The translations under genes and the position numbers were made by a program. DNA of 64,000 nt, from NCBI GenBank assembly GCA_001793855.1, contig MGIR01000001.1, positions 8,645 to 72,644 on the forward strand, in the 5' to 3' direction. Shown here one piece after another: positions 766 to 63,719 of the stretch; position 1 is the first letter of the stretch; every line of letters begins with the position of its first letter. The notes beneath the pieces are model-generated. The model was not told the origin of the DNA, did no database searches, and was given only the letters and a program-made list of their open reading frames with translations. The DNA comes from Candidatus Wolfebacteria bacterium RIFCSPLOWO2_01_FULL_45_19. Lineage in GTDB: Bacteria > Patescibacteriota > Minisyncoccia > UBA6257 > GWB1-45-9.

Positions 766-835
766 TATAGATTTAAGATTTATGATTTAGGATTTAAGAT
801 TCTTACGTCTTAAATCTTACGTCTTAAATCTTTTT
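766..835. repeat. heptamer-tandem palindrome (gatttaN x4 / atcttaN arm) in the galT-mrdA spacer
   Basis: Tandem gatttaagatttatgatttaggatttaagatt is followed by its reverse complement, cttacgtcttaaatcttacgtcttaaatc. Confidence 0.7.
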
Positions 836-2680
836 TAATCTATTTTCATAATACCACCTCAAAACATCCTTAGCCATCGGGACAGAAACAAAAGAGCCCT
901 CCGGTACATCCTCTACAATAATAAGAATAGCGATTTGCGGCTCATCAGTGGGGGCGTAGCCGACAAAAATAGCATTTGCTTTAGCACCGCTGTTTGTTTG
1001 CGCCGTACCGGTTTTCGCCGCGATGCCGAACGATAAATTCGAAAGCAAATGCGCCGTACCGTATGACTGTTTAACCGCATCTTTCATTCCTTCCCTGACT
1101 TCCGTTATGGCATTTCCCCAATCTTGCCGTGAAAGCACTTGCGGTTCGCCCTCAACAAGCCGCGGTTCGTAAAAAGTTCCGCCGTTCGCGATTGCGGCAA
1201 TGTAATTGAGCAATTGAATTGGCGTAACCAAAAAATCACCTTGCCCGATGCTTACGTTGTATGTATCGCCAATACGCCATATCTCGCCCGTGCGCGATTC
1301 TTTATATTCCGGATCAGGAAGCAGTCCCTCCGCTTCTCCAGGCAAATCAATGCCTGTTTTTTTACCAAAACCGAATTTTTCCCACCATTCCTTAAGCTTT
1401 ACTATGCCCAAACCTTTTATATCTTCAAAACCGCCTCCGGCCGCGTAAAAATATATGTTGCTGGAGCGCGCTATTGCCGAACGCAAGTTTACCCAACCGT
1501 GAGGTTTCCAGTCGCGAAAAACGCTCGGCTGTGACGGAAAATAGGGGTTTGGGATTTCAATGAAACCTGCGGAAAAAATATTGGTCTCAGCCGTTACAAC
1601 CCCCTCAATCAAAGAGGCAAGAGCCACAAGCGGCTTAATGGATGAACCAGGATTGTAAATTCCGGAGACGGCGCGGTTAAAAAACGGTTTGCGCGGGTCC
1701 TCTAAAATTTTCTTTCTTTCTTCGCTTCTGTCCGGATAAGAAAAAGCGTTGGCCTCATAATTCGGAAAGCTGAACAAACTTAGGATTTCTCCGTTTTGCG
1801 GATTAATGGCGATGCCTACGCCGGAAGAACGTCCGAGCGCGGACAGCGTTTCCTTAAAACGTTGGAAAAAGTATTTTTGAAATTCCGCGTCAATTGTCAA
1901 TTTAAGAACCGTGCCGTCTTTCGGTTCAACGACCATTTGTTCGCCAAGCCGTTCACCCATCGCGTTTCTATAAATTATAAATCTGCCGCCTTCCCCTCTT
2001 AACACACCGTCATATTGCAATTCCAAACCGCCCCTGCCTATCAAGTCATTCGTATAAAGAGAGGGATTTTTGGCGATATCTTCCCGCGAGACCATTCCGA
2101 CATATCCAAGCACAGAAGAAAAAACCGGGTCGTCTTCATAATTTCTTATATAGTCCTCGCTTATTACAAAAATGGACGGGCTGAAACTTTTTATGCGTAT
2201 AACTTGTTCGTACGTTATTCCGCGAGCGATAAGAATTTCAGGATTTTTCTCAATATTCGTTTCTTTCAGCAATGATTTGAGTGAATCGCCGTCAATCAAC
2301 TTCGCCGTCTCAAGAGCGCCAATAATCGCTTCTTGTTCCTCTGAGGAGGCCTTTATAAATTTATGAGTCCGCAAACGCACATTAAATCCGGGAATGTTTT
2401 TTACAAGCGGGTTGTCAAAACGGTCAAGAAACAGACCCCGTTGCGCCTCGATTATTCTGACTTCATTTGCGTTGGCTTCGGCGCGCCTGCCGTAAAATTC
2501 TCCCTTGACGTAAACAAGATATAAAGAGCGCCCCGCTGCCATTATGGTGGCGGCCACTATTATTAACGCGAGAAGACGCAATGCCGATTCGGAAAGTGGG
2601 AGCTCTATCGTTTCCTCGTCTTTCGCGACTATCGCATCTTCAAGGTTCGGAGGAGGACTATTTTTTCTTCGCCAAAACAT
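824..2680 (-). CDS. mrdA: penicillin-binding protein 2 (peptidoglycan D,D-transpeptidase)
   Basis: SSIK (SxxK) and KTGTA motifs are present. It sits downstream of mreBCD. Confidence 0.8.
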   Translation of the reverse strand: MFWRRKNSPPPNLEDAIVAKDEETIELPLSESALRLLALIIVAATIMAAGRSLYLVYVKGEFYGRRAEANANEVRIIEAQRGLFLDRFDNPLVKNIPGFNVRLRTHKFIKASSEEQEAIIGALETAKLIDGDSLKSLLKETNIEKNPEILIARGITYEQVIRIKSFSPSIFVISEDYIRNYEDDPVFSSVLGYVGMVSREDIAKNPSLYTNDLIGRGGLELQYDGVLRGEGGRFIIYRNAMGERLGEQMVVEPKDGTVLKLTIDAEFQKYFFQRFKETLSALGRSSGVGIAINPQNGEILSLFSFPNYEANAFSYPDRSEERKKILEDPRKPFFNRAVSGIYNPGSSIKPLVALASLIEGVVTAETNIFSAGFIEIPNPYFPSQPSVFRDWKPHGWVNLRSAIARSSNIYFYAAGGGFEDIKGLGIVKLKEWWEKFGFGKKTGIDLPGEAEGLLPDPEYKESRTGEIWRIGDTYNVSIGQGDFLVTPIQLLNYIAAIANGGTFYEPRLVEGEPQVLSRQDWGNAITEVREGMKDAVKQSYGTAHLLSNLSFGIAAKTGTAQTNSGAKANAIFVGYAPTDEPQIAILIIVEDVPEGSFVSVPMAKDVLRWYYENRLKKI

Positions 2681-3098
2681 TAATTTTGAAATTCTTTACA
2701 ACGAAAAAGACTGCTAAAGCTATGGCAATATTCATGGCCGCCTCCGTTAAGTACTGATAAAAACCGGGCGGCAAAAAAACAAGAGTCGCGACCGCCGCGG
2801 CCGCTACAACGAATATGACGCTACCACGGCGAAAATAGTTCGCCGCAAAAATAAGCGCGGCTCCGGCGGCTATAAACAAAATTATTTCCATTTCAAAAAA
2901 TGCCTCGGTTTTCAACACAAAAGCGCCAAAAGACAAAAAGCCGGCGTTAACAAAAAAATTCTGGCTGAAAACAACCAGTGCCGCGAAAACCGCGAGAACC
3001 CAATTCGGCTTAACTCCCCAGACATTAAAAAATCCATACTGCAAAAAAACCGCCATTAAAATAAGAAAAAGGAAAAAGGCCTCACGTTTCATAATCAA
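2658..3098 (-). CDS. mreD: rod shape-determining protein MreD (polytopic membrane protein)
   Basis: Hydrophobic 146 aa protein between mreC and mrdA. Confidence 0.55.
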   Translation of the reverse strand: MIMKREAFFLFLILMAVFLQYGFFNVWGVKPNWVLAVFAALVVFSQNFFVNAGFLSFGAFVLKTEAFFEMEIILFIAAGAALIFAANYFRRGSVIFVVAAAAVATLVFLPPGFYQYLTEAAMNIAIALAVFFVVKNFKINVLAKKK

Positions 3099-3771
3099 TC
3101 ACGTAAATTACTCGCAATTTATTGAGCGAATACGGAATCTCTATACTCGCGGACTTGAAACTTTCTGCCGGAGTGTCAAATACTTCTCCAACCAAACCGA
3201 TGGATAGGCCGTATGGAAAACGCGAATCGGCCAAAACAACCGGAGCGCCTTCGAAAATATTTTCATCTTTTCCAATCATGGTCAGCAATGGATGGTTACC
3301 GCCTCGTAAAAAAGCGTCTATTTCTTCTGCGCCGATGCGAACCGAGATTTCAAAATCCTGGTCAAAAATAGTCCTGACTGAGCTTGTCTTTTCGGACACT
3401 CTGCTCACAAAACCAACAAGCACCTTCTCCCGGGTAACGACCGGCGCCACTTCTTTGATGCCGTCGGCTGTTCCGCCTTGAATTATAAGTTCATTTCGCG
3501 TGTTAAACGGATAACTGGAGTAAACGCGAACAGAAATAAATCCCTCGGTCTCGTTCGGGATATAATTTTCTTCCAACGCAAGCCGGCTCTTCAAAACGGT
3601 ATTTTCTGCCCTGAGTGTTTCCAATTCTTCGGAAACAGCCGAAGAAAAAAAATCGCCCAAACCGATATATAAAGAGCCAAGCGCAACGTTTTTGAGATCA
3701 ACAGCGAAACTTCCAGCGAAAGCAACGACAAGAAAGATGATTGCTAAAAACGAAAATAAATAATTCTTCAT
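3082..3771 (-). CDS. mreC: rod shape-determining protein MreC
   Basis: N-terminal TM segment plus coiled-coil. Position between mreB and mreD. Confidence 0.65.
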   Translation of the reverse strand: MKNYLFSFLAIIFLVVAFAGSFAVDLKNVALGSLYIGLGDFFSSAVSEELETLRAENTVLKSRLALEENYIPNETEGFISVRVYSSYPFNTRNELIIQGGTADGIKEVAPVVTREKVLVGFVSRVSEKTSSVRTIFDQDFEISVRIGAEEIDAFLRGGNHPLLTMIGKDENIFEGAPVVLADSRFPYGLSIGLVGEVFDTPAESFKSASIEIPYSLNKLRVIYVIDYET

Positions 3772-3774
3772 GCT

Positions 3775-6093: not shown

Positions 6094-6907
6094 AAAATTA
6101 TTTTAGTCATGCCCAATAATTAGGGCTTACGAAGCTCTAAATATTACTCCAAAGTTATTTGCGATATATCGCGTGAATCCATCTCCTTGAGCCAGCTCGT
6201 CATTGATTTTTTATACTGCTCCGGCCCATCAAAAAATTTAAGCAAGAGATCTCTCTGCGTTACGGAGGGAAAATTCTTTTTACCGATATAATCCGGAAAA
6301 CTGCTCCATCGGTAGTTTTCTAAATAGGCAAACGCTTTTTTATAATCTTTGACATCTCGCTCTCTCCAATTTGGCGCGAAATAATCAAGCGGATTGCAGT
6401 GAATATAAAATGGGAGGTGAATAAAATGCGCGTCATTATCGACGGCGATACATTTATATCTTCCTTCAAAAAGCGCGCCGGCTCTTTTGTATTTTAGATT
6501 AAAATAATTCGCGTATCCCATATTCAATCGCCGCATAAAAAGCGTCAACCATTCTTTAGAGCGCGCCCTGACGAGTAAATGATAATGATTTTTCATTAAA
6601 CAAAAAGTTAACATCTCAGCCAACAATATCCGCGGCCTTCGCTGTTTTTGTTGCCTCTCAATATTAGGGCTTGCGAAGCCCGAAGGATTAGTTTTGAAAA
6701 GATAGGTATTATTTGGAAGCGGCTGAGCGTCGTTAAATTCAAATAAATTATGAATAAATCTCATAAAATCCTCTTCATCCAAAAAAAGTTTTCTTTTGTC
6801 AACTCCTCTGCTTAAAATGTGGTAAATATTTCCAGGTATAATTTGCGGCCTCATAATAAACATACTCTAGCGCAACACTTAGGGCTTCGCAAGCCCTAAG
6901 TGTTGCG
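6094..6907. mobile_element. REP/RAYT unit: IS200-like tyrosine transposase gene flanked by TTAGGGCTT-NGC-AAGCCCTAA hairpins
   Basis: Hairpins at ~6100-6128 and 6871-6907 (16-17 bp stem), plus a third copy inside the ORF at ~6663-6683. Confidence 0.6.
6144..6863 (-). CDS. REP-associated tyrosine transposase (RAYT, IS200/IS605 Y1 family)
   Basis: YHILSRG and NHYHLLV HuH motif. Confidence 0.7.
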   Translation of the reverse strand: MFIMRPQIIPGNIYHILSRGVDKRKLFLDEEDFMRFIHNLFEFNDAQPLPNNTYLFKTNPSGFASPNIERQQKQRRPRILLAEMLTFCLMKNHYHLLVRARSKEWLTLFMRRLNMGYANYFNLKYKRAGALFEGRYKCIAVDNDAHFIHLPFYIHCNPLDYFAPNWRERDVKDYKKAFAYLENYRWSSFPDYIGKKNFPSVTQRDLLLKFFDGPEQYKKSMTSWLKEMDSRDISQITLE

Positions 6908-8240: not shown

Positions 8241-8358
8241 TTGACTTACTATCAATTTAATGTAAAATTCAAAAATCAAAGTGCAAAATGACAATATAAA
8301 ATTTTAAAATTTTTAACTGTTGTTTTTCATTTTGATATTTACATTTTAAATTTTAACT

Positions 8359-13845: not shown

Positions 13846-13857
13846 AACTTAAAAACA

Positions 13858-13895
13858 GTTCTTGGGTTCTTCAGTTCTTACGTTCTTTAGTTCTC
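13858..13895. repeat. tandem gttcttNN octamer array (single arm) in the rplQ-rplM spacer
   Basis: gttcttgggttcttcagttcttacgttctttagttctc. Confidence 0.6.
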
Positions 13896-21794: not shown

Positions 21795-21880
21795 CTCTAA
21801 ACCCTTATCTCTAAATCCTAAACGTTTGAAGTTTTGAATTTGAGATTTATTTAGAAATTAGATATTAAAAATTAGGATTT
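21795..21880. repeat. palindromic heptamer-repeat element (ctaaatcc / ggatttag family)
   Basis: The left arm tctaaacccttatctctaaatcctaaac is nearly identical to the arm of the element inside the 16S gene at 32221. Confidence 0.7.
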
Positions 21881-22581: not shown

Positions 22582-23787
22582 TTAGTAGTAAGTGTAAGTG
22601 GTATAACTTGAATAAGCGCTCCAAGTGCACAACCCGGCGTTCAGAGGAGAGCTAGTATTAGTAGCTTTTCTGGAACCGCCTCCGTAGGGATAACAACTTC
22701 CATCAAACGGCCAGCCATTGGCGTCGGAAGTAGGAACCGTGCCATTTTGAGCGTATAAAGACACTCCAGGACTACTGCAAGCATAAGTAAGATTTGTGCA
22801 GGTCGCGTCACTCATATAACAGTTGAAGCCATTCGTAACTCCGTTCCACGAAACCATCCAAAAGCTAACCGTGTCGGCGCCGGACTGGCAACTACTGGGG
22901 GTCGGCGGGGTACAACTATATGACGCTCCCGGAGTAGCAGTTGATGCACCATTTGCACATTGTCCCAAGAAATTATAGCCTGTGCCAGTAGTGTAATTAT
23001 CCCAATATCTGTTGCAATCCTCATCAATGAGAGGCGTTGCCGAACCGGACCCTCCTACTGCCGAACAAGTCGCATTTTGCGAGAACGCCGCGACTGACGC
23101 GCTGTCCGAAATCCGTTGCAGTCTGATTTGCAGTCCGGTTGCATTCCAAGTCGTTGCGGTAAAGTTATCGCCATTCAATTGAGCGGCCGCGTTGGTCGTG
23201 TTGGCATCGCAATTGTAAGTGGCATAGCTTAAGTCAGTCCATACTGAACCGGTGTAATACTGCAACCGACAGCCGCCCACCCCTCCGTTGCCTGTGCCGG
23301 CAGTCCAGCTGACGGTGAAGTCCCTGCGCCTGACCGTCTGAGTTAAGACAAGCGAAGTCGGCGGAGAAGAGGCGCCCCAAACACAAGAAGTCGCGCCGTC
23401 GCTGGTTTTAACCCAGCCGGTTCCGTTGCAGGCGCAGGTCGTGTAACCTGCAGTCATAGCCAACGATTTGCTTGTTGAAGCGTCACAAGTAAAAGGACTG
23501 GAAGAGTTTATTGGAAATTTTAACGCTCCTGTCGCCTCAATAATCCCGTTAATCGTGAGCTTGCTTGCCGGAGAAACTGTGCCGATGCCGACATTGCCGG
23601 TTCCGGGGTCAAATACTAAACCAGCGGTGCTTGTCGCGTTGCCTACCCGAAACCCGCCGCTCACGTCAAAAGTGTACTCCGGCGTTATTCCGATGCCGAT
23701 GTTTCCGCTACTGAACTTAAGGTTTCCACCGCCGATGCCTGGGCTTAAACTGGCGGGGCCGGTGAATCCGAGCGCGACAAAAACCAA
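22582..23787 (-). CDS. Cys/Thr/Gly-rich secreted or surface protein
   Basis: N-terminal hydrophobic segment. GTGNVGIGT repeats and many Cys. Confidence 0.55.
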   Translation of the reverse strand: MVFVALGFTGPASLSPGIGGGNLKFSSGNIGIGITPEYTFDVSGGFRVGNATSTAGLVFDPGTGNVGIGTVSPASKLTINGIIEATGALKFPINSSSPFTCDASTSKSLAMTAGYTTCACNGTGWVKTSDGATSCVWGASSPPTSLVLTQTVRRRDFTVSWTAGTGNGGVGGCRLQYYTGSVWTDLSYATYNCDANTTNAAAQLNGDNFTATTWNATGLQIRLQRISDSASVAAFSQNATCSAVGGSGSATPLIDEDCNRYWDNYTTGTGYNFLGQCANGASTATPGASYSCTPPTPSSCQSGADTVSFWMVSWNGVTNGFNCYMSDATCTNLTYACSSPGVSLYAQNGTVPTSDANGWPFDGSCYPYGGGSRKATNTSSPLNAGLCTWSAYSSYTTYTYY

Positions 23788-23863
23788 GAAACCGGAAACT
23801 AAGATACTTATTGATATTAATAGATATTTATTGATATTCGTGAATCCAGATTAATTTGTTTGC

Positions 23864-24331
23864 TCACCAGACGCATGCCGTTATGCCGTCGCTGGTTTTA
23901 ACCCAGCCGGTCCCGTTGCAGGCGCAGGTCGTGTAACCTGAAGTCAATGACAATGAGCCGGCATTTGAAGCGTTACAGGTAAAAGGAGCCGATGCGTTAG
24001 CCACCAATTTGAATCCCCCCAAAGTGGATTCAATAATCCCGTTGATCATGAGCTTGCTTGCCGGAGAAACGGTGCCGATGCCGACATTGCCGGTTCCGGG
24101 GTCAAATACTAAACCAGCGGTGCTTGTCGCGTTGCCTACCCGAAATCCGCCGCTCACGTCAAAAGTATATAAAGGCGTTATTCCTAAGCCGGTGTTTCCG
24201 CCAGAAGTTACAAAAAACCCAGAGCCAGTTCCCGGAGAAACCGAAGGGCCTGTAAATCCCAACACAACCGATACAAAGATGCCGGCGGATACTATTATAC
24301 CTGCGGATATCAACAGATATTTATTGATCAT
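23864..24331 (-). CDS. truncated paralogue of the 22582-23787 gene (tandem partial duplication)
   Basis: About 95% nucleotide identity over ~450 bp with 23390-23790. It diverges after TSDG. Confidence 0.5.
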   Translation of the reverse strand: MINKYLLISAGIIVSAGIFVSVVLGFTGPSVSPGTGSGFFVTSGGNTGLGITPLYTFDVSGGFRVGNATSTAGLVFDPGTGNVGIGTVSPASKLMINGIIESTLGGFKLVANASAPFTCNASNAGSLSLTSGYTTCACNGTGWVKTSDGITACVW

Positions 24332-25363: not shown

Positions 25364-26531
25364 TCCTTATTTGCCCCGACGTGGCGTAATCAATGTTTGT
25401 TGAAGTGTTAAAACTCGCGGTGGTAGTAGCGGTAATTGGATTGTCTGTCGGATCTGTATAGCCGCCGCTCCAGTCGGTCTGCGAAAACAGGCGGTTAGAA
25501 TGACGGGTAAAATATCTGAACTGGCTGAAAGAATCAGTCGCGGCTAAAATTTCCCAGCCGGAAGTTACGGTTATTTTCTGAGTGGACGGGTCGTCGGTTC
25601 CGCTCACGGCTATTGCTCCGTTCGCGTCTCTATTTACGTTCTCAACATAAAAAGAGCGCATATATCTGTCACTGTTATAAATCTGCCAAATTTCATCGGC
25701 GGATAGGGCGCGGTCGTAAATGCGGACGTCGTCCAGCAGACCGTCAAAATAACCAGCAGAAACACGCCCGATGTCCATCGCCGAAGCGCCAACGCCTGTC
25801 GTGTCGGTTATAGCGACGTGGCGCCAAACCGCTGTAATAGTCGCGGACGCGGAACTGCCGTCCACATACACGATGGAGGCGGGGAAGCCCGTTGCGACAA
25901 CGTTGCTGTTTGCGTCTATTTCAATTTGAGCCGTCCCGTTCATATCAATTATTTTTTTTGATACTATAACATCCGCCTTCATCCAAAACATCACCGTCTT
26001 AATGCCGGCTCCAACATTGCCCAAAACGACATAATCCTCCGTCCCGTCAAATTCCAAACATCTGCTCAATTTGCAGGCGGAAGTTGAGGTCGCGCCGCCG
26101 GTGACTGTGCCGTCGTTATTGTTGTTCGTAGCGTCAAAAGCCGTAGTCGTTCCTACTGCCTCGTCAAATTTCCAGTAACCAACCAAGCCGTTAATAATGT
26201 CATCGCTGATAAGCCCCTCTTCGCCTTGTATAATCGTGGACGTCGCTCCAAACTTAATAAAATATTTATTCGCGGAGCCCTTATCTAAATTGTAAATATC
26301 GTGCCAGTTTTTTTCGGACATTCCCGCAAGCGAAATAAAATATTCGGATGTCAGACCGGCCGCTGTCTGCATCTGTTTGCTCTGCACGTTGCCGCGTAAT
26401 ATTCCCACGATACTAACCACCACTCCGCCGACAATAATGGCGCCAACGGCAATGGCGACGATAATCTCAAGAAGGGACTGCCCTTTTTGAGCTTTTAGCT
26501 TATAGCTTTTAGCTTTTAGCTGATTTTTCAT
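25350..26531 (-). CDS. type IV pilin-like protein with C-terminal LamG/concanavalin-like domain
   Basis: Prepilin leader KGQSLLEIIVAIAV (Glu at +5). LamG_3-like signature FDGLLDDVRIYDRALSADEI. Confidence 0.65.
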   Translation of the reverse strand: MKNQLKAKSYKLKAQKGQSLLEIIVAIAVGAIIVGGVVVSIVGILRGNVQSKQMQTAAGLTSEYFISLAGMSEKNWHDIYNLDKGSANKYFIKFGATSTIIQGEEGLISDDIINGLVGYWKFDEAVGTTTAFDATNNNNDGTVTGGATSTSACKLSRCLEFDGTEDYVVLGNVGAGIKTVMFWMKADVIVSKKIIDMNGTAQIEIDANSNVVATGFPASIVYVDGSSASATITAVWRHVAITDTTGVGASAMDIGRVSAGYFDGLLDDVRIYDRALSADEIWQIYNSDRYMRSFYVENVNRDANGAIAVSGTDDPSTQKITVTSGWEILAATDSFSQFRYFTRHSNRLFSQTDWSGGYTDPTDNPITATTTASFNTSTNIDYATSGQIRIEGY

Positions 26532-26708
26532 TGCAGTTTTTTAATTATTGTTGTCAACATTTTTTGAGCTTCCGTGAGAAATGCTTCAGCTTTAGAAAAG
26601 TCAACGTCTTTGTAAAGCTCTTTGGCTATTAATATTTGCGTTTCAAGCTCCGCGAAAGATTCTACGTACATAAATAATTTCTAAAAGCTACGAGCTAACA
26701 GCTATAAG

Positions 26709-27167
26709 CTATCTCGTGATATTTCCATTTTCCAAAACGCTTACATTGATTATACCGTCTCCGACGGTGGTTAGCAAAGTAAATGTAGCCGTATTATCAG
26801 GGACGCCGCTTATTTTAAGAAAATTGATTATCGTTGAATTTCCCTGCGCCGGAGAGCTGAATTCAATATGCGACGGCAAAGTTACCGAACGATGCGTAGT
26901 TGAAGCGCCACCGATTGTCTCGGCGTAAAAAATATCGTACCTATCCCCGTCACCAGCCGGCGCGTTTACATATACTCCCCAAAAACTTGATTCCAGTTCG
27001 CTTATGGAATTTTGCTGGGCTTCGCGAAGAGTTTGAACAAGCTTGTCTGATTCAAATTCCAAAGTACGTTGAACCCGCAAGTTTTGAATCGTGAGCAAAC
27101 CTATACCGCCGACAATCACCGTTATGCCGAGCGAAATCAGAAGCTCAATTAAGGTAAAACCCTTCAT
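26709..27167 (-). CDS. type IV pilin/pseudopilin
   Basis: MKGFTLIELLISL class III signal. Confidence 0.75.
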   Translation of the reverse strand: MKGFTLIELLISLGITVIVGGIGLLTIQNLRVQRTLEFESDKLVQTLREAQQNSISELESSFWGVYVNAPAGDGDRYDIFYAETIGGASTTHRSVTLPSHIEFSSPAQGNSTIINFLKISGVPDNTATFTLLTTVGDGIINVSVLENGNITR

Positions 27168-30089: not shown

Positions 30090-30093
30090 AGTT

Positions 30094-30162
30094 GTAATTT
30101 TGAATTTCTAATTTCAGTCATTTAAAATTGGTTCGAAATTCAAAATTCAAAATTGAAAATTA
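30094..30162. repeat. aaaattc heptamer palindrome
   Basis: taattttgaatttctaatttc ... cgaaattcaaaattcaaaattgaaaatta. Confidence 0.6.
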
Positions 30163-31712: not shown

Positions 31713-31994
31713 GATTTATATTATAGCAAAACTTTTCTCGTTGTCCCAAGAGTCGAGACTTGATGGCTCATCGACTAATACCATCCCGCCGAAGCGGGGT
31801 CGACACTAGTTTTCATTATTGAAAACTAAGTTTAATTAATCCACGCACAGCTTCCGCTACGCGTGCCTTGTTACGACTTCGTCCGTGTCACCGAACTTAC
31901 CCTAACCCCGCAAAACGGAGTTTTAGGTATTCCCGGCTTCCTTGACGTGACGGGCGGTGAGTACAGGACTCGAGAACGTATTCACCGCGGCATA

Positions 31995-32029: not shown

Positions 32030-32193
32030 AGGGCGAGTTGCAGCCCTCAATCCGAACTTGGGCCGGTTTTAAGGGATTAGCTCCACCTTACGGTTTGGCA
32101 ACCCTTTGTACCGGTCATTGTAGCACGAGTGTAGCCCAGGGCATCAGAGGGCCATGCGGATTTGACGTCGTCCCCTCCTTCCTCCCAGCACTT

Positions 32194-32359
32194 TGTTCGC
32201 AAACGAACAAAGCAATTTCTAAACTCTAATATCTAAATCCTAAACAAATTTTAAAAATCAAATCTCAAATTCGAAACGTTTGGAACATTTGAATTTGGAA
32301 TTTTGAGATTGTTTAGAGATTAGGATTTCGAATTTAGGATTTCTTTGCGCTTGTGCGCA
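32194..32359. repeat. ~165 nt palindromic heptamer-repeat element forming an expansion in the 16S h40 loop
   Basis: Closed by CAGCACTT/AAGTGCTG. The arms tctaaactctaatatctaaatcctaaac / gtttagagattaggatttcgaatttaggattt match the element at 21795. Confidence 0.7.
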
Positions 32360-32725
32360 AAGTGCTGGGCAGTTTTGCCTGACACGTATAACAGACAATA
32401 GGGGTTGCGCTCGTTTCCCCACTTAAGGGAACGTCTCACGATACGAGCTGACGACAACCATGCAGCACCTGTCCTGACGTCCTTGAGAGACAACACGCCT
32501 TTCAGCATGTCTTCGTCAAGATTTCTAGCCCTGGTAAGGTTCCTCGTTTAGTATCGAATTAAACCTCATGCTCCACCGCTTGTGCGAGTCCCCGTCTATT
32601 CCTTTGAGTTTTAAGCTTGCGCTCGTACTTCCCAGGCGGCCTGCTTAACGCGTTAGCTTCGCCACTCCGAGGGTCGATACTCGAAACAGCCAGCAGGCAT
32701 CGTTTAGGGCGTGGACTACAAGGGT

Positions 32726-33856: not shown

Positions 33857-34457
33857 ATCTAATCCTTTTTGCTCCCCACGCTTTCGTGTCTCAGAGTCAG
33901 GAACGTCCCAGCCAGCTGCCTTCGCCTTTGGTGTTCCGCACGATATCAACGGATTTCACCCCTACACCGTGCGTTCCACTGGCCTCTGACGTCCTCTAGT
34001 TCGGCCGTATCTCTTGCAGCCTCAGGGTTGAGCCCCGAGATTTAACAAAAGACGCACCGAACATCCTACACACGCTTTACGCCCAATAAATCCGGATAAC
34101 GCTTGAGGTCTACGTTTTACCGCTGGTGCTGGCACGTAGTTACCCACCTCTTTCCACAGGGTACCGTCAACCTCGCGCGTAGCGCGAGAACCGAAAAACA
34201 CATGAACGTAAAAACGTAAGAACAAGTTGTTCTTTGGTTTATAGGTTCTTTAGTTTTTTAGTTCTTGTGCTACGCACAAGGCTTCTTCCCCTGCTATCGC
34301 GGTTTACGACCCGAAGGCCTTCTTCCCGCACGCGGCGTCGCTCGATCAGGCTTTCGCCCATTGTCGAATATTCTCGACTGCTGCCTCCCGTAGGAGTATG
34401 CACCGTGTCTCAGTTGCATCGTCGGGGAACAGGCTCTCACCCCCCCTACCGGTCATA

Positions 34458-34492: not shown

Positions 34493-34817
34493 CAGACCTA
34501 AGCCACTCCTGAAGCGATTTGCATCTTTACTCCGACACCCTTGCGGGGTCGGAGATTATTTGGAATTACCTCGTCTTTCGACGAGCTATGCCAAACTTCA
34601 GGGTATGTACTAAGGCGTTACTGACTCGTTCGCCACTGCCTCGCGCCTTGCGCGAGAACAAAAAAACGAAAGAACAAAAGAACTTAAGAACAAAAAGTTC
34701 TTGGGTTCATAAGTTCATGGGTTTTTTAGTCCTTGTGCAAAACACAAGGCCGTTCGACTTGCATGCCTTATCCACGCCGCCAGCGTTCATCCTGGACCAG
34801 GATCAAATCCTCAATAA

Positions 34818-34892
34818 GAGCTTTCAGCTTTTAGCTTATAGCTTATAGAAGGTAACCCCCCTAACAGCTAACAGCTATCAGCTAACAGCTCG
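34818..34892. repeat. agctNNN heptamer palindrome immediately upstream of the 16S 5' end
   Basis: agcttttagcttatagcttatag ... ctaacagctaacagctatcagctaacagct. Confidence 0.6.
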
Positions 34893-35296
34893 AAATACTT
34901 GGGACAACAAGAAAAATTTTGCTTGTTTTACTTAATTTGGACTCTTTTTTATTTTCCTTTTTTATTTTTAAAACAACGGTCAAATCTCTCTGGATTCAAT
35001 AAAACATCCACCGCTAACCCGTCTGCGACGGACTAGCGGTGGACGTCTTCAAATTAAATTATAGAATTGATTTTAAAATGTTAATCGTCCCATCCTTCAA
35101 TCATGTTTCCAGTATAACCGCAGCAAAAAACTTGTCAAGTGATGATTTTAATTGGAAGAATTAAACGCTGTGGATAACTCACTTACATACTCAACGATCG
35201 TTAAGTATGTAAGTAAATTGTTATACTTGCCCCCCATATCTATGCATAGATGTGGGGGCTTGCTTTCAAAAATGGTTTATTATAATATGTGAAACT

Positions 35297-39201: not shown

Positions 39202-39467
39202 CAATTTTTGATTTAAGAATTTTCATAAAAGAATTTGCCGCCAATCAACACATTTTTTAATAACTTTTAAATTGAAAAAATGTACTGAAATGAGTTATTA
39301 TTAACTCATTAGAAAAACTTGAAATTGTCATTCGTGCGGCTCCGCCGCCTTTCCGAATTTTCGCGGGCCTTCGCCTCGCCGAAGTGGCTTCGGCCACGCA
39401 GGCGGGGGGAATTTTCCGGAAAAATGTGTTTGGACTAATTCAAGAATACTGCACCACGTAAAATACA

Positions 39468-40529
39468 ATGCGAATTCTTGCCATTGAAACAAGTTGCGAC
39501 GAAACAGCTATAGCTGTTGTGGATGCGAAAGGCGGCCTGAAACGGCCGCGTTTTAAGATTGTCGCGAATGAAGTCGCTTCACAGATTAAAATACATCGCC
39601 CGTTCGGCGGCGTTGTCCCGAATCTTGCTAAGCGAGAACATATAAAAAACCTCCCCATTTTATTTAAAAGAATTCTTAAAGCTAAAGGCTTAAAGCTAAA
39701 AGCTGATATTATCGCCGTTACCGTTGGACCAGGGCTTGAACCGGCGCTGTGGACCGGAATTAATTTTGCAAAAGAGCTCGCGAAGAAATATAAAAAACCG
39801 CTTATCGGTGTTAACCATATGGAAGGGCACCTCTACTCGAACTGGTTTTTACCAGTTCGAGAAATTCAAAATTCAAAATTCAAAATTCAAAATTCCATCA
39901 AGACGATTGTTTTTCCAGCAATCGTTTTGGTTGTGAGCGGCGGCCACACCATTCTTTTGAAGATGGATTCTGTAACAAAGCGGAAAAAACTCGGTGAAAC
40001 TCGCGATGACGCGGCGGGGGAGGCATATGATAAAGTCGCGCGATTGCTTGACTTGCCGTATCCCGGCGGACCGGAGATAGAAAAGATAGCCAAAAGAGGA
40101 AATTCCGAAGCCGTACAATTTCCGCGCCCTATGCTTAACCAGAAAAATTATGACCTCAGTTTTTCCGGCCTAAAAACCGCAGTTTTGTATTATCTGCGTG
40201 ATAACCCTCTAAAAGCCAAAAGCTTAAAGCTAAAAGCTGATATCGCCGCTTCGTTTCAGCAAGCCGCGATTGATGTTCTTGTCGCAAAAACGATGAACGC
40301 CGCTAAGGAATACAAAGCTAAATCCGTGATGCTTTGCGGCGGAGTAGCCGCAAACAAAGCTCTTCGCAAAGAACTTAAAATTCAAAGCTTAAAATTTAAA
40401 GCTGATTTTTACGCTCCGGAATTTGCGTTGAATACGGACAACGCGGCAATGATAGCCGCCGCGGGTTATGTAAGTTTTTTGAAAAAGAAAAAACTGCGTC
40501 TGACCGCGCAGTCAAATCTCAGCTTGTGA
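39468..40529 (+). CDS. tsaD: tRNA N6-adenosine threonylcarbamoyltransferase TsaD, with a repeat-derived internal insertion
   Basis: Collinear with E. coli TsaD (HMEGH, GGHT, DDAAGEAYDK). It has ~14 extra residues (REIQNSKFKIQNSIKT) encoded by gaaattcaaaattcaaaattcaaaattcc. Confidence 0.85.
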   Translation: MRILAIETSCDETAIAVVDAKGGLKRPRFKIVANEVASQIKIHRPFGGVVPNLAKREHIKNLPILFKRILKAKGLKLKADIIAVTVGPGLEPALWTGINFAKELAKKYKKPLIGVNHMEGHLYSNWFLPVREIQNSKFKIQNSIKTIVFPAIVLVVSGGHTILLKMDSVTKRKKLGETRDDAAGEAYDKVARLLDLPYPGGPEIEKIAKRGNSEAVQFPRPMLNQKNYDLSFSGLKTAVLYYLRDNPLKAKSLKLKADIAASFQQAAIDVLVAKTMNAAKEYKAKSVMLCGGVAANKALRKELKIQSLKFKADFYAPEFALNTDNAAMIAAAGYVSFLKKKKLRLTAQSNLSL

Positions 40530-46865: not shown

Positions 46866-46945
46866 AAACTAAAGAACATAAGAACATAAGAACGTAAGAA
46901 CGGTTTTGAGTTCATCAGTTCATTCGTTCATAAGTTTTTAAGTTA
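46866..46945. repeat. aagaac/gttctt octamer palindrome
   Basis: ctaaagaacataagaacataagaacgtaagaac ... gttcatcagttcattcgttcataagtt. Confidence 0.7.
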
Positions 46946-46953
46946 TACAAGAT

Positions 46954-60965: not shown

Positions 60966-61213
60966 AACTGAAAGAACAAGTAAAAAAAAGAAAATTGGAA
61001 GGCATTGTCGTTTCGGACAAGATGCAGAAAACAAGAGTGGTTGAAATAACGCGGTTTAAGAAAAATCCCAAATACTTGAAGTATTACAAAGTAAGCCGCA
61101 AATTTAAGGCGCATGACGAGAATAACGAATACAAGACGGGGGATAAGGTTGTTATTGAAGAAACAAGGCCGCTGAGCAGGGAAAAGAGGTGGAGAATCGT
61201 GCAAAAGATTTAA
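60962..61213 (+). CDS. rpsQ: 30S ribosomal protein S17
   Basis: Conserved sequence. Confidence 0.85.
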
Positions 61214-61274
61214 GATATAAGATTTAAGAAGTAAGAGTCTTAAATCATAAACCTTAAATCCTAAATCTAAACAA
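61214..61274. repeat. taagat/atctta heptamer palindrome
   Basis: agatataagatttaagaagtaagagtc ttaaatcataaaccttaaatcctaaatct. Confidence 0.6.
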
Positions 61275-61945: not shown

Positions 61946-62409
61946 AGTTGGAAAAAATAGTTGTTAACGTCGGGGTAGGGCGATTGAGTCAGGCGCCTAA
62001 TTTTTCGGATAAAATTCTTCCGGAAATTGATAAAGAACTTGCTTTAATCACGGGCCAGAAGCCGTCTCCGCGCGGCGCGAAACAATCTATAGCCGGTTTT
62101 AAAATTCGCGCCGGAAATGTTGTTGGACTGAAAGTTACTTTGCGTGGTAAAAGAATGCGCGATTTCTTGAGCCGTTTGGTGAATATAGCTCTACCGCGAG
62201 TAAGAGATTTCAGGGGCGTTGACTTGAAAAATGTGGACAAATCCGGTAATCTTAGCATCGGCTTTCGTGAACACTCCGTTTTTCCGGAAATAAATCTTGA
62301 AACCAGCCGGGTCAATTTCGGATTGGAGGTAACATTGGTGCCGAAGATTCGTATTAGAGAGAAGGCGATTGAAGCATATCGGCAATTGGGAGTGCCGTTC
62401 AAAAAATAA
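61918..62409 (+). CDS. rplE: 50S ribosomal protein L5
   Basis: Conserved sequence. Confidence 0.9.
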   Translation: MQKMQSDNLKLEKIVVNVGVGRLSQAPNFSDKILPEIDKELALITGQKPSPRGAKQSIAGFKIRAGNVVGLKVTLRGKRMRDFLSRLVNIALPRVRDFRGVDLKNVDKSGNLSIGFREHSVFPEINLETSRVNFGLEVTLVPKIRIREKAIEAYRQLGVPFKK

Positions 62410-62500
62410 ACTAAAGAATTAAAGAACCAAAGAACGGAAGAGTAAAGAACGGTTTATGAGTTCTTAAGTTCATAAGTTCTCAAGTTAAACAAATTAAACA
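62410..62500. repeat. aagaac/gttctt octamer palindrome
   Basis: ctaaagaattaaagaaccaaagaacggaagagtaaagaac ... gttcttaagttcataagttctcaagtt. Confidence 0.7.
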
Positions 62501-62688: not shown

Positions 62689-63062
62689 CAGATTTATTAA
62701 CGAGAATTAAAAACGCTCAGGCGGTAAAGCATGAACGGGTAAAGCTTCCATACAGCAAAATGAATGAGACAGTCGCTCATTTGCTCTTGAAGCACAAATA
62801 TGTTGCCGGAGTGGTAAAAAAAGGAAGAATGCCAAAACGTATGTTGGAGGTGGAGTTGAAGTATGAAAACGGCTCTGGCGTCATCAGGGGCATAAAATTT
62901 GTAAGCAAACCATCGCGTAGAATTTACGCCGGTTACCGTGATTTAAAATCCGTCAAACAAGGTTACGGCATGCTTATGATTTCTACACCGGAAGGTTTGA
63001 TGAGCGGCTCGGAAGCAAGAAAGAAGAAATTGGGCGGAGAATTATTGTTTGAGATATGGTAA
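62682..63062 (+). CDS. rpsH: 30S ribosomal protein S8
   Basis: Conserved sequence. Confidence 0.9.
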
Positions 63063-63133
63063 ATAATTAAAAACCAAAGAACTAAGGAACGCAAGAATGG
63101 TTTTAAGTTCATTCGTTCATAAGTTTTTAAGTC
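63063..63133. repeat. aagaac/gttctt octamer palindrome
   Basis: aaccaaagaactaaggaacgcaagaatgg ... gttcattcgttcataagtttttaagt. Confidence 0.7.
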
Positions 63134-63141
63134 ATCTAAAC

Positions 63142-63687
63142 ATGTCAAAACTAGCCAAAAAATTAATACCAATTCCGCAAGGAGTAACAATGGAAAAGAA
63201 CGTGGACGCGTTACAGATAAAAGGTCCCAAAGGCGCTCTGTCTTTAAGTTTACTGCCGTACATAGAGGTTTCGATTGAAGAAAACGGAATTCGCGTTTCT
63301 TTTACTACCGACGAGAAGCAGGCGCGGGCTAATTGCGGAACAATGTGGGCCTTGATCAGAAACGCCTTTGAAGGAGTCAGCAAAGGTTTTGAAAAGAAAT
63401 TGGAAATAGAAGGGGTCGGTTATCGTGTTTCAATGGAGGGTAAGGCGTTGGTGCTTAACATAGGTTATTCTCATCCGGTAAGATTTGAGTCGCCGGAAGG
63501 CGTTGAGATTAAAACGGAAAAGAATGTCATGCGCGTATCCGGAATAGACAAAGGACTGGTTGGTCGCGTTGCCGCGCAGATTCGCGCGATGAAGAAACCC
63601 GAACCATATAAGGGAAAAGGAATAAGATATCAAGGGGAAATAATAAGAAGAAAAGCCGGCAAGAGAGTGGCGGGAACCACAACGTAG
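63142..63687 (+). CDS. rplF: 50S ribosomal protein L6
   Basis: Similarity from MSKLAKK onward. Confidence 0.85.
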   Translation: MSKLAKKLIPIPQGVTMEKNVDALQIKGPKGALSLSLLPYIEVSIEENGIRVSFTTDEKQARANCGTMWALIRNAFEGVSKGFEKKLEIEGVGYRVSMEGKALVLNIGYSHPVRFESPEGVEIKTEKNVMRVSGIDKGLVGRVAAQIRAMKKPEPYKGKGIRYQGEIIRRKAGKRVAGTTT

Positions 63688-63719
63688 AAAATAGAATCTA
63701 GAATCTGGAATTTAGAATC
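63688..63719. repeat. tagaatc heptamer tandem array (single arm)
   Basis: gaaaatagaatctagaatctggaatttagaatc immediately before the rplR ATG. Confidence 0.55.

What the first reader, a model, noticed from the sequence alone, without database searches (positions are those of the whole stretch)
766..63719. Genome-wide family of 7-8 bp tandem-unit palindromes in almost every intergenic spacer, including tight ribosomal-protein operon gaps
At least 18 spacers contain the same architecture: a tandem array of 7-8 nt units, then an array of the reverse-complement unit, predicting long AT-rich imperfect hairpins.

Unit flavours:
- aagaac/gttctt: 13858, 46866, 54335, 57352, 62410, 63063
- gaaac/gtttc: 51470
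- taagat/atctta: 766, 61214
- ctaaatcc / ggatttag: 21795, 59630
- tagaatc: 63688
- agctttt: 26490, 26681, 34818
- aaaattc: 30094

In typical bacteria these S10/spc spacers are only a few nt long or overlapping. Here each holds a 60-110 nt palindrome. Candidate roles are RNase processing or terminator/stabiliser stems, or a selfish MITE/REP-like element family whose units diversify by slippage.
Basis: seen in the sequence. Interest (0 to 1): 0.7.

Follow-up and report, generated by a model that had tools for sequence, protein, structure and literature searches.

The report
Dispersed hairpin repeats built from 7-8-base units
A tiny groundwater bacterium (Candidatus Wolfebacteria) carries families of AT-rich hairpin repeats whose two arms are short tandem arrays. 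They sit between genes and also at three helix tips of its 16S rRNA, so they look like a spreading, slippage-prone repeat element rather than a conserved regulatory signal.

Summary
The architecture is real and far beyond chance. Short tandem repeats in the window have periods of almost only 7 or 8. They are 30 times denser in non-coding than in coding DNA, with 17 arrays seen where 0.16 are expected. Most pair with an inverted array to give weak, beaded hairpins (z about -2 to -9).

"Almost every spacer" is overstated. 16 of 40 spacers of at least 30 nt carry one: 12 full palindromes and 4 single-arm arrays.

Arrays also lie in coding loops of TsaD and in a pilin leader peptide.

Copies form families. 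One 28-base stretch recurs at three unlinked loci with at most 1 mismatch. Occupancy is not conserved in relatives. Other Patescibacteria carry the same build with other units, including one family found in an operon spacer in one contig and in 16S h6 in another.

The elements are not terminators, TIGR or CRISPR arrays, or the repeats flanking the local RAYT-like gene.

Best reading: dispersed palindromic elements (MITE/REPIN/IVS-like) whose arms change by compensatory slippage and that settle wherever extra sequence is tolerated. The means of spread and any RNA-level role are unproven.

The parts
766..832 (-). Family B palindrome (AAGATTT/AAGACGT units, then YTAAATC units) between the PBP2 stop and the GalT start
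   Evidence: MFE -26.5/-19.7, z -6.1/-3.6; gene map
8259..8352 (+). AT-rich palindrome with weak period 7 (AAAATNN) in the MurA-MreB2 spacer
   Evidence: z -3.1
13846..13894 (-). Family A element cut short: five AAGAAC units, a loop and the first unit of the 3' arm, ending at the L13 start codon
   Evidence: does not fold
21795..21880 (-). Imperfect CTAAATC/GATTTAG palindrome between the L33-like gene and the 5' end of tRNA-Trp
   Evidence: z -2.2 on the sense strand
26486..26521 (-). AGCTAAA heptamer array that encodes the pilin-like leader peptide MKNQLKAKSYKLKAQKG
26681..26711 (-). Single AGCTNNN array running from the stop of the 152-aa gene to the start of a 47-codon ORF. It is complementary to the array at 26486, 155 nt away
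30092..30158 (-). GAATTTT/AAAATTC palindrome between the 186-aa gene and the T2SSE gene
   Evidence: z -3.0/-2.3
32190..32363 (-). 175-nt insertion in 16S rRNA at h39/h40 (about model position 1160): two short GC hairpins flanking a periodic palindrome (32210-32346). Absent from relatives L254, L230, L249 and L288
   Evidence: (z -4.5/-5.8)
34171..34281 (-). Family A palindrome with GC modules inserted at the tip of 16S helix h17 (about model position 455). Absent in L254; L249 has an unrelated AATTTTC palindrome at the same site
   Evidence: (MFE about -53, z -8.9/-7.6)
34635..34753 (-). Family A palindrome with GC modules inserted at the tip of 16S helix h6 (about model position 80). 78% identical to the h17 copy
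   Evidence: (87/111 identical, z 24)
34815..34901 (-). AGCTNNN-unit palindrome directly next to the 5' end of the 16S gene (pre-rRNA leader)
   Evidence: (sense strand MFE -45.2, z -7.5)
39675..40403 (+). Four heptamer arrays inside the TsaD gene (39675-39704, 39862-39895, 40209-40238, 40374-40403). The first three coincide with loop insertions of +1, +14 and +5 aa relative to solved TsaD; the fourth shows no length difference
46866..46950 (+). Family A palindrome between the PBP and Mur ligase genes
   Evidence: (z -3.6)
51470..51544 (+). GAAACTA/GTTTC palindrome between S12 and S7
   Evidence: z -3.3/-3.6
54345..54449 (+). Family A palindrome between orf62 and EF-Tu, ending 1 nt before the start codon
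   Evidence: (z -4.0/-6.2)
57352..57441 (+). Family A palindrome between L4 and L23. Its first three units encode the last seven codons of L4
   Evidence: (z -2.1)
59649..59678 (+). Single-arm TTAGAAA/GATTTAG array in the L22-S3 spacer
   Evidence: (no fold)
61205..61268 (+). Family B palindrome between S17 and L14. The S17 stop codon lies in the first unit
   Evidence: (z -4.3/-5.9)
62409..62486 (+). Family A palindrome between L5 and S14. Relatives L091 and L093 have overlapping genes here
   Evidence: (z -3.1)
63075..63132 (+). Family A palindrome between S8 and L6. The true L6 start is at 63142, judged from relatives
   Evidence: (z -2.7/-4.9)
63688..63719 (+). Single-arm TAGAATC array filling the L6-L18 spacer
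   Evidence: (no fold)

Best explanation
These are families of non-autonomous, dispersed palindromic repeat elements, 60-175 nt long and 18-30% G+C in a 45% G+C genome. Each arm is a tandem array of 7- or 8-nt units.

Shown:
1. Each full element is an imperfect palindrome. It folds into a beaded hairpin of 4-6 bp helices separated by 2-4 nt internal loops.
2. Copies belong to families that share termini and linker order at unlinked loci, so sequence has been copied between loci.
3. Copies sit where extra sequence is tolerated. These places are the gap between a stop codon and the next start codon, next to the 5' ends of a tRNA and of 16S, the tips of 16S helices h6, h17 and h39/40, surface loops of TsaD and a pilin leader peptide.
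4. Occupancy differs between relatives, and the same rRNA site carries unrelated unit types in different lineages.

Inferred:
5. Unit number drifts by replication slippage. The two arms stay complementary through compensatory slippage or template switching within the hairpin.
6. The means of spread is unknown. Hairpin-based single-strand transposition, or recombination or template switching, are possible.
7. At the RNA level the elements are probably near-neutral passengers. In operon mRNAs they are weak hairpins that leave the next start codon 1-16 nt downstream of the stem, in an organism without Shine-Dalgarno pairing. In pre-rRNA they behave like intervening sequences or expansion segments.
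For: Architecture and excess over chance.

Family structure:
- Five full operon copies, one truncated copy and two 16S copies of the AAGAAC family are 65-88% identical in pairs, far above shuffles.
- Several of them share the termini AACTAAAGAAC...AAGTTTTTAAGTYA.
- The 28-mer AAGTTCATTCGTTCATAAGTTTTTAAGT occurs at 46916, 57421 and 63105 with at most 1 mismatch, where 0 are expected.
- The two 16S copies are 78% identical over 111 nt.

Tolerated sites:
- The insertions lie at h6, h17 and h39/40. These are sites where E. coli 16S accepts 31-nt insertions experimentally (PMC2441807).
- Three of the four TsaD arrays match loop insertions of +14, +5 and +1 aa.
- The ends of coding regions are conserved, and the elements sit exactly between stop and start.

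Turnover:
- Relatives L091, L092 and L093 have overlapping genes or 2-10 nt where the window has elements. L091 has a family-B-like array at a different junction.
- 16S genes of L254, L230 and L288 lack the three insertions. L249 has an AATTTTC palindrome at h17.
- The 16S h6 insert of L279 is 82% identical, with the same termini, to the S14-S8 spacer element of L001.
- Period 7 dominates short tandem repeats across 80 loci that are mostly Patescibacteria: 127 arrays against 55 at period 8 and 40 at period 9.

Published background: compensatory slippage is the accepted model for repeat-built rRNA expansion helices (PMC1888808). A slippage preference for heptamers in prokaryotes is summarised in PMC4679880.
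Against: - No transposase, target-site duplication or autonomous copy was identified. The termini contain TAA/TTAA, so a duplication cannot be told apart from the inverted repeat.
- No insertion, deletion or SNP was seen in any element among about 13 assemblies of the same population (99.8-99.99% identical). There is therefore no direct sign of current mobility or hypermutability.
- All 8 AAGAAC-family copies have the same orientation relative to transcription. Elements persist in ribosomal operons of many lineages. Both points could reflect function.
- Similarity between copies could partly come from gene conversion, or from alignment of repeats built from the same unit.
- Only about 73 kb of this genome was examined, and the nearest relatives are distant (S8 at most 79% identical).
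Confidence: 0.55

Rival explanations
1. They are functional RNA hairpins kept by selection. Within operon transcripts and pre-rRNA they could act as RNase III or other processing sites, as barriers to 3' exonucleases, or as devices that bring a stop codon and the next start codon together so that ribosomes re-initiate in an organism without Shine-Dalgarno pairing.
For: - The hairpins span the spacers from the stop codon to 1-16 nt before the start codon.
- The organism lacks the CCUCC anti-SD and SD motifs.
- All 8 family A copies share one orientation relative to transcription.
- There is no variation among strains.
- One element lies next to the 5' end of 16S and another next to the 5' end of a tRNA, where processing occurs.
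- In relatives L290 and L281, heptamer-array arms flank an ORF that resembles IVS proteins, in the manner of RNase III-cleaved intervening sequences (PMC11270868).
- The rRNA copies are more stable on the sense strand.
Against: - They are not conserved at orthologous junctions, even in the nearest relatives.
- In mRNA spacers the antisense fold is on the whole more stable than the sense fold.
- No compensatory pair changes are seen.
- Single-arm arrays and coding-region arrays cannot work as hairpins.
- Helices of 4-6 bp broken by internal loops are poor RNase III substrates (general knowledge).
- The base composition of the arm next to the start codon is not consistent across elements.
Confidence: 0.2
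2. Each element arose in place, by replication slippage of a local heptamer or octamer followed by inverted duplication or compensatory slippage. There is no movement between loci, and similar units reflect mutational bias and convergence.
For: - Period 7-8 dominates tandem repeats in many lineages, with more than 130 different units.
- Unit types differ between loci.
- The first unit of some arrays is the conserved end of the upstream gene. The S17 C-terminus QKI*, encoded by CAAAAGATTTAA, is also QKI* in relative L011.
- Arrays grow inside coding loops.
Against: - A 28-nt stretch that includes specific linkers and a variant unit recurs at three unlinked loci with at most 1 mismatch.
- Several family copies share termini.
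- The two 16S inserts share GC modules and are 78% identical.
- An h6 insert in L279 and an operon spacer element in L001 share termini and 82% identity.
Confidence: 0.12
3. The arrays are periodic binding sites for a protein, either on RNA (for example S1, cold-shock or CsrA-like proteins) or on DNA. This was proposed for the TAACTGA heptamer repeats upstream of start codons in Beggiatoaceae. On this view the hairpin is secondary.
For: - Single-arm arrays lie directly next to start codons here (13857, 26681, 59649, 63692).
- In Peregrinibacteria locus L054, ATTCTTN arrays precede start codons across the ribosomal-protein operon region.
- The published analogue is PMC4679880.
- A 59% G+C viral contig carries AAGAACNC arrays upstream of genes.
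Against: - At least seven unit types occur in one 64-kb window and more than 130 across lineages, so there is no single motif.
- Most arrays are paired with their complement, which would hide a single-stranded site.
- Arrays also occur in rRNA helices and in coding loops.
- The arm next to the start codon is purine-rich in some elements and pyrimidine-rich in others.
Confidence: 0.08
4. They are intrinsic transcription terminators or attenuators.
For: Element 766 is followed by TTTTTT on the + strand, although the flanking genes are read on the - strand. Hairpins at gene ends are the classical position for terminators.
Against: - The genome has separate canonical terminators: GC-rich stems flanked by A and T runs at 42073, 48204, 48401, 50612, 55995 and 56186.
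- None of the periodic palindromes between 44 and 64 kb is picked up by the terminator scan.
- They are 2-3 times weaker per nucleotide than those terminators.
- They lie inside the essential S10/spc operons.
Confidence: 0.03

Closest known systems
REP / REPIN elements with their RAYT transposase (Enterobacteria, Pseudomonas)
   Same: Short, extragenic, hairpin-forming repeats, many inside operons. REPINs are hairpins of about 100 nt. The window encodes a Y1 (HUH) protein whose only NCBIfam match is REP-associated tyrosine transposase, below that model's cut-off. The 16S inserts are built as GC hairpin, spacer, inverted GC hairpin.
   Different: The arms are tandem 7-8-nt arrays rather than a conserved REP with a GTAG/CGTC head. 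The RAYT-like gene is flanked by a different GC-rich hairpin, TTAGGGCTTCGCAAGCCCTAA, found only next to that gene. Several unrelated unit families coexist.
Bacterial MITE-like palindromic elements (Neisseria Correia elements, Rickettsia palindromic elements, pneumococcal BOX/RUP); from my own knowledge
   Same: Non-autonomous, dispersed, transcribed with neighbouring genes, variable occupancy between relatives. Rickettsia elements also insert in frame into coding genes and RNA genes. BOX elements have a variable number of internal modules.
   Different: No parent insertion sequence and no clear target duplication. The internal structure resembles a microsatellite, with 7-8-nt units. Sequence families are not conserved across lineages.
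rRNA intervening sequences, and the short ORF-less 'uncharacterized' insertions in CPR rRNA genes (PMC11270868)
   Same: Stem-loop insertions at helix tips of a single-copy rRNA gene. The window also has a LAGLIDADG-bearing insertion. Relatives have ORFs resembling IVS proteins, flanked by heptamer-array arms.
   Different: Here the same repeat family also fills spacers in protein operons. Excision by RNase III was not tested. Classical intervening sequences are best known from 23S helices 25 and 45.
Compensatory slippage in eukaryotic rRNA expansion segments (Hancock and Dover 1990, as summarised in PMC1888808)
   Same: Simple repeated motifs on one strand of a variable helix are matched by complementary motifs on the other strand. 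The helices grow at sites that tolerate insertions.
   Different: This is a bacterium with a reduced genome, the units are 7-8 nt, and the same structures also occur outside rRNA and as dispersed families.
Heptamer direct repeats in bacteria: TAACTGA repeats of Beggiatoaceae, Cyanobacteria and Bacteroidetes (PMC4679880); cyanobacterial STRR heptamers (from my own knowledge)
   Same: Tandem 7-nt units concentrated in intergenic DNA, often ending a few nt before start codons, including inside ribosomal-protein operons, in genes without canonical ribosome-binding sites.
   Different: Those are almost all direct repeats of one heptamer (169 direct sets against one inverted set). Here most arrays are followed by their reverse complement, and many unit types coexist.
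Organellar palindromic repeat families (Volvox PMC2670323, sponge repetitive hairpin-forming elements PMC2800124, Fusarium 'palindromic microsatellite repeats' PMC7218506)
   Same: AT-rich hairpin repeats that invade the intergenic DNA of small genomes, are optional between sister taxa and are viewed as selfish.
   Different: A different host (a free bacterial genome), different sequences, and documented copies inside 16S helices and protein-coding loops.

Membership tests
REP/REPIN-RAYT system | A RAYT (Y1 transposase) gene flanked by the same repeat that is dispersed through the genome | tested here: not met
   The Y1_Tnp/RAYT-like ORF at 6144-6863(-) is flanked by TTAGGGCTTCGCAAGCCCTAA hairpins at 6120, 6664 and 6879 only. 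None of these resembles a periodic palindrome.
REP/REPIN-RAYT system | A conserved 20-40 nt imperfect palindrome with a conserved GTAG/CGTC head | tested here: not met
   Element termini are TAACTAAAGAAC / AAGTTTTTAAGTYA or the equivalent of another family, and the arms are tandem arrays.
MITE | Terminal inverted repeats and dispersed non-autonomous copies | tested here: met
   The whole element is an inverted repeat. There are eight family A copies in 64 kb, and a shared 28-mer at three loci.
MITE | Target-site duplication and a related autonomous element with the same ends | tested here: inconclusive
   Flanks contain TAA/TTAA, which cannot be separated from the inverted termini. Empty sites in relatives are too divergent. 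No ORF flanked by family ends was found in the window.
rRNA intervening sequence / expansion segment | An extended stem-loop inserted at the tip of a variable rRNA helix and absent from relatives | tested here: met
   Inserts at h6, h17 and h39/40 fold at about -37 to -53 kcal/mol and are absent in L254, L230 and L288. The sites match permissive sites in E. coli 16S.
rRNA intervening sequence / expansion segment | Excised from the transcript by RNase III without re-ligation (intervening sequence), or retained in the mature rRNA (expansion segment) | not testable with these tools
   This needs rRNA-level sequencing or a northern blot.
Intrinsic terminator | A G+C-rich stem followed by a U tract | tested here: not met
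   None of the elements between 44 and 64 kb is picked up by the scan. They are 18-30% G+C and -0.16 to -0.23 kcal/mol per nt, against -0.41 to -0.65 for the real terminators.
Simple-sequence heptamer arrays (LSSR; TAACTGA-type) | Tandem direct repeats of a unit of about 7 nt, enriched in intergenic DNA near start codons | tested here: met
   The difference is that 12 of 16 occupied spacers also carry the inverted array.
TIGR-Tas arrays | A long array of about 36-nt dual-spacer units next to a gene for a Nop-domain Tas protein | tested here: not met
   The units are 7-8 nt, each locus has only 3-6 units per arm, the loci are dispersed, and no Nop-domain gene appears in the gene and Pfam lists. 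The definition is taken from PMC12045711.
CRISPR | Identical repeats of 24-48 nt separated by unique spacers | tested here: not met
   TRF and the repeat scans show only 7-8-nt periods with no spacers.
Compensatory-slippage helices | Repeated short motifs on one arm, complementary repeated motifs on the other arm, and length variation between taxa | tested here: met

The most novel reading that the evidence does not exclude
The periodic palindromes are kept in the mature 16S rRNA as bacterial expansion segments. The operon spacers carry arrays of the same units (AAGAAC/GUUCUU). The two sets pair or exchange strands, so that ribosomes are recruited or held at cistron junctions. This would replace the missing Shine-Dalgarno/anti-Shine-Dalgarno contact in this lineage with a contact between an rRNA expansion and the mRNA that evolves together with it.
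Probability: 0.04. Interest if true: 0.9.

Novelty: new variant of a known kind. Interest (0 to 1): 0.6.

Why it matters
CPR/Patescibacteria have very small genomes, yet they tolerate unusual numbers of insertions in their rRNA genes. The short ORF-less insertions are listed as uncharacterized in the most recent survey (PMC11270868).

This analysis links them to a concrete kind of sequence. Palindromes with microsatellite-like arms also fill operon spacers in the same genome, and in related lineages one family appears in both settings. If that holds generally, it would have three consequences:
- It would explain part of the rRNA insertion load in CPR.
- It would give a bacterial example of rRNA expansion by compensatory slippage, a process so far discussed for eukaryotes.
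- It would identify a recurrent cause of contig breaks, scaffolding gaps and wrongly called start codons in CPR metagenome assemblies.

It also offers a natural system for asking how polycistronic translation copes with 60-130 nt hairpins between cistrons in an organism without Shine-Dalgarno pairing.

Tried and rejected
- Terminator role: rejected. Separate GC-rich terminators exist and the scan does not pick up the elements.
- TIGR or CRISPR arrays: rejected on unit size, dispersal and the lack of an associated gene.
- Link to the local Y1/RAYT-like gene: its flanking hairpins are a different, GC-rich sequence found only at that gene.
- Copy-number polymorphism: 13 assemblies of the same population show no insertion, deletion or SNP in any element. 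The one apparent deletion (L085) is a run of N.
- Covariation test on five family A copies: uninformative. There are 0 pairs with changes on both sides because the copies are too similar.
- Sense against antisense stability as a sign of selection at the RNA level: no advantage for the sense strand in mRNA spacers, and an advantage for it only in the rRNA copies.
- A single conserved unit recognised by a conserved factor: rejected. There are 132 distinct canonical units in 80 loci plus the window.
- A pyrimidine-rich arm next to start codons (an S1 binding platform): not consistent across elements.
- AAGAAC-type arrays in relatives: absent from the related loci apart from a single two-unit match in L041. 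The viral scan gave mostly single or coding repeats, plus one unrelated 59% G+C contig with direct arrays.
- Genome-level link between arrays in 16S and arrays elsewhere: only weak support (0.25 against 0.08 per kb, p = 0.02, n = 7 against 32).
- Rfam search of the structured RNA between S10 and L3: no family.
- A sliding-window MFE scan alone does not pick out the elements, because GC-rich coding sequence folds more strongly.

Full report
SOURCE AND CONTEXT

The window comes from a Patescibacteria (CPR) genome. Its S8 protein is identical to that of Candidatus Wolfebacteria bacterium RIFCSPLOWO2_01_FULL_45_19, and the sequence recurs in many Rifle groundwater assemblies. G+C is about 45%.

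I built a gene map from gene calls and Pfam hits on identical contigs. 8.8% of the window is non-coding, and there are 40 spacers of at least 30 nt.

The window holds a 16S rRNA gene on the minus strand. It spans 2990 nt for a 1533-nt model.

Yes in kind, but overstated in extent.
- Non-redundant short tandem repeats in the window have period 7 (17 arrays) or 8 (14 arrays), and almost nothing else.
- They are 30 times denser in non-coding DNA (3.74 per kb) than in protein and tRNA genes (0.126 per kb).
- Dinucleotide-shuffled spacers give 0.16 arrays where 17 are observed.
- A gapless inverted-repeat search gives 26 long hairpins against 0-6 in shuffles.

Twelve spacers carry an array followed by the reverse-complement array. 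These fold with z = -2.1 to -8.9 on at least one strand.

Four spacers carry a single arm only and do not fold (13857, 26681, 59649, 63692).

So 16 of 40 spacers are occupied, not 'almost every' one. Within the S12-to-L18 ribosomal cluster it is 8 of 10. Many relatives have 0-10 nt or overlapping genes at the same junctions.

ANATOMY

The hairpins are beaded: helices of 4-6 bp (for example GAAC/GUUC or AGCU) alternate with symmetric internal loops of 2-4 nt, giving the 7- or 8-nt period.

The operon copies are 18-30% G+C and weak, at -0.16 to -0.23 kcal/mol per nt. The genome's canonical terminators reach -0.41 to -0.65 kcal/mol per nt.

The elements run from the upstream stop codon, sometimes including it or the last few codons, to 1-16 nt before the next start codon.

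1. Three periodic palindromes lie inside the 16S gene, at the tips of h6 (34635-34753), h17 (34171-34281) and h39/h40 (32190-32363). A fourth lies directly next to the 5' end of 16S (34815-34901). A separate 1.13-kb insertion encodes a LAGLIDADG endonuclease. The three helix sites are ones where E. coli 16S tolerates 31-nt insertions experimentally (PMC2441807).

2. Arrays also occur in coding DNA. Four lie in TsaD. Three of them coincide with loop insertions of +14, +5 and +1 residues relative to solved TsaD structures. One encodes the basic leader peptide of a pilin-like protein.

FAMILIES AND DISPERSAL

The AAGAAC/GTTCAT octamer family has five full operon copies, one truncated copy and the h6 and h17 copies.
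- Pairwise identity is 65-88%, far above shuffles.
- Several copies share the termini AACTAAAGAAC...AAGTTTTTAAGTYA.
- A 28-nt stretch that includes specific linkers and a variant unit occurs at 46916, 57421 and 63105 with at most 1 mismatch. None is expected by chance.
- The two 16S copies are 78% identical over 111 nt, including their GC-rich hairpin modules.

This means sequence has been copied between unlinked loci. It did not simply arise separately at each place.

All eight copies have the same orientation relative to transcription. This cannot be separated from orientation relative to replication, because genes switch strand where the cumulative GC skew turns, at about 35 kb.

COMPARISON WITH OTHER SEQUENCES

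Thirteen assemblies of the same population are 99.8-99.99% identical over up to 21 kb. They show no insertion, deletion or SNP in any element. All but one of the SNPs over the ribosomal-protein stretch are in coding DNA, and the exception lies in the non-periodic L2-S19 spacer. Several short contigs end at an element, and one has a scaffolding gap over 63684-63731.

The nearest relatives available (S8 79%, 74% and 73% identical) keep the ends of the coding regions. They have overlapping genes or 2-10 nt where the window has elements. One carries an AAGATTT/AAGACAT array at a different junction.

Among 80 GTDB loci, period-7 and period-8 arrays and palindromes occur patchily in several groups, each with its own units:
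- relatives of Wolfebacteria and Colwellbacteria;
- Yanofskybacteria;
- Moraniibacteria, which have a 90-nt dispersed repeat in seven consecutive junctions;
- Peregrinibacteria, which have single-arm ATTCTTN arrays upstream of start codons;
- others.

Across these loci there are 132 distinct canonical units, and period 7 dominates overall.

16S genes fetched from metagenomes show the same pattern. Relatives L254, L230 and L288 lack the three insertions. L249 has an unrelated AATTTTC palindrome of the same build at h17, plus heptamer arrays in its flanking spacer. L189, L198, L200, L205, L225, L244 and L279 have h6 expansions built as a GC stem plus an AT-rich periodic palindrome. L290 and L281 have an ORF that resembles IVS proteins, flanked by heptamer-array arms.

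The h6 insert of L279 is 82% identical, with the same termini, to an operon spacer element in L001.

Genomes with arrays in 16S have about three times more arrays outside it, but the sample is small (p = 0.02).

WHAT IT IS NOT

- Terminators: separate GC-rich stems with T-runs exist at operon ends, and no periodic element is picked up by the terminator scan.
- TIGR or CRISPR arrays: unit size, dispersal and the lack of an associated gene rule these out.
- The repeat of the local Y1/RAYT-like gene: that gene is flanked by its own GC-rich hairpin, which is found nowhere else in the window.

MOST LIKELY EXPLANATION (confidence 0.55)

These are families of non-autonomous palindromic elements that spread within a genome and settle wherever extra sequence is tolerated.

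Shown: the architecture, the family relationships, the tolerated sites and the turnover between relatives.

Inferred:
- Unit number changes by replication slippage, and the arms are kept complementary by compensatory slippage or template switching. This is the model accepted for repeat-built rRNA expansion helices (PMC1888808). A heptamer bias of slippage in prokaryotes is summarised in PMC4679880.
- The means of spread is unknown.
- The RNA-level effect is small.

RIVALS

- Selected RNA hairpins for processing, stability or translational coupling (0.20). For: geometry, orientation and the absence of SD/anti-SD. Against: no conservation at orthologous junctions, antisense folds as stable as sense folds or more so, single-arm and coding arrays, and no covariation.
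- Purely local origin with no movement between loci (0.12). Contradicted by the shared 28-mer and termini.
- Arrays as protein-binding sites, as proposed for TAACTGA repeats (0.08). Weakened by the number of unit types.
- Terminators (0.03).

COMPARISON WITH WHAT IS KNOWN, AND NOVELTY

The elements work most like REPIN or MITE-type hairpin repeats. In rRNA they work like intervening sequences or expansion segments that grow by compensatory slippage. Their single-arm forms resemble the heptamer direct repeats of Beggiatoaceae and cyanobacteria.

They fail the defining tests for REP/RAYT, terminators, TIGR and CRISPR.

In seven full-text literature searches I found no description of palindromes with microsatellite-like arms in CPR, or of one repeat family shared by operon spacers and 16S helices. 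The recent survey of CPR rRNA insertions leaves the short ORF-less ones uncharacterized. I therefore rate this a new variant of a known kind.

LIMITS

- Only about 73 kb of this genome was examined.
- All sequences are metagenome assemblies, and consensus sequences hide variation within a population.
- The nearest relatives are distant.
- There are no RNA data.
- Alignments of repeat-built sequences inflate identity. For that reason I rely mainly on the exact 28-mer, the shared termini and the GC modules.

Noticed in passing
window 31829-31870 (16S 3' end, minus strand) and all start codons: The 16S 3' tail reads GGAUUAAUUAAACU instead of GGAUCACCUCCUUU, so the CCUCC anti-Shine-Dalgarno sequence is missing. 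Regions upstream of the 79 genes are A/U-rich with no SD motif. The exception is the 129-aa gene at 38750, which has AAAGGAGG.
   Followed up: partly
window 55983-56309 (between S10 and L3): The 327-nt gap holds a terminator (55995-56026), a perfect TTGACA-16-TATAAT promoter (56032-56059), a GC-rich structured RNA of about 130 nt, a second terminator (56186-56208) and another small hairpin. No Rfam family matches, so this may be an unannotated small RNA gene inside the S10 operon. Relatives also have 120-500 nt gaps here.
   Followed up: partly
window 6120-6899: A Y1/HUH transposase-like ORF (6144-6863, minus strand). It matches Pfam Y1_Tnp, and its only NCBIfam match is REP-associated tyrosine transposase, below that model's cut-off. 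Three copies of the hairpin TTAGGGCTTCGCAAGCCCTAA are present: one on each side of the gene and one inside its coding sequence.
   Followed up: yes
window 32725-33855: A 1.13-kb insertion in 16S at about model position 790 encodes a LAGLIDADG_2 endonuclease (32820-33584, minus strand). No Rfam group I or II intron model reached its threshold. Relatives L254, L230 and L249 lack the insertion.
   Followed up: partly
window about 34.8-35.3 kb: The cumulative GC skew reaches its minimum here, and gene orientation switches from minus to plus. This suggests a replication origin near the 433-nt 16S-L31 spacer.
   Followed up: no
window 23395-24328: An imperfect tandem duplication of 493 nt (about 78-85% identity) spans two adjacent hypothetical genes.
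   Followed up: no
window 39368-39430: A GC-rich stretch upstream of TsaD differs by a block of about 21 nt of insertions, deletions and substitutions between this window and the assembly from another sample (L096). It is the only length variant seen among strains.
   Followed up: no
window 54129-54317: A 62-codon ORF overlaps the end of fusA and precedes tuf. It has no Pfam match and is present in all assemblies of this population.
   Followed up: no
window 26532-26680 (minus strand): An uncalled 47-codon ORF (MYVESFAELETQ...KKLQ*) is bracketed by two complementary AGCT-unit arrays. Its stop overlaps the pilin gene start (ATGA).
   Followed up: no
L111 and L172 (IMGVR_UViG_3300001533_002010): A 59% G+C 'viral' contig carries many direct arrays of AAGAACNC octamers, up to about 17 units, upstream of genes. 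They have no inverted partner, which resembles the TAACTGA-type repeats.
   Followed up: partly
L064 6094-9581 (Moraniibacteriota MAG): A conserved element of about 90 nt (GCATCCGAAAGCGCGCTACGAACGCGCC...ATTCGTAGATTCGTATTTAATTCGTAGTTTCGTATCGG) occupies seven consecutive junctions of the S10 operon. It is a different dispersed spacer repeat that also contains period-8 units.
   Followed up: partly
L290, L281 and L194 (16S h6 region): The h6 insertions in these metagenomic 16S genes carry ORFs. In L290 and L281 the ORF resembles the 23S rRNA IVS protein family and is flanked by CTGGANA heptamer arrays and their complement. In L194 the ORF looks like a GIY-YIG protein. Both assignments were made by eye and were not checked with a profile search.
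   Followed up: partly
window 56310-56732: Ribosomal protein L3 is only 131-140 aa here and in relative L093, which is shorter than the usual length of about 210 aa (my own knowledge).
   Followed up: no
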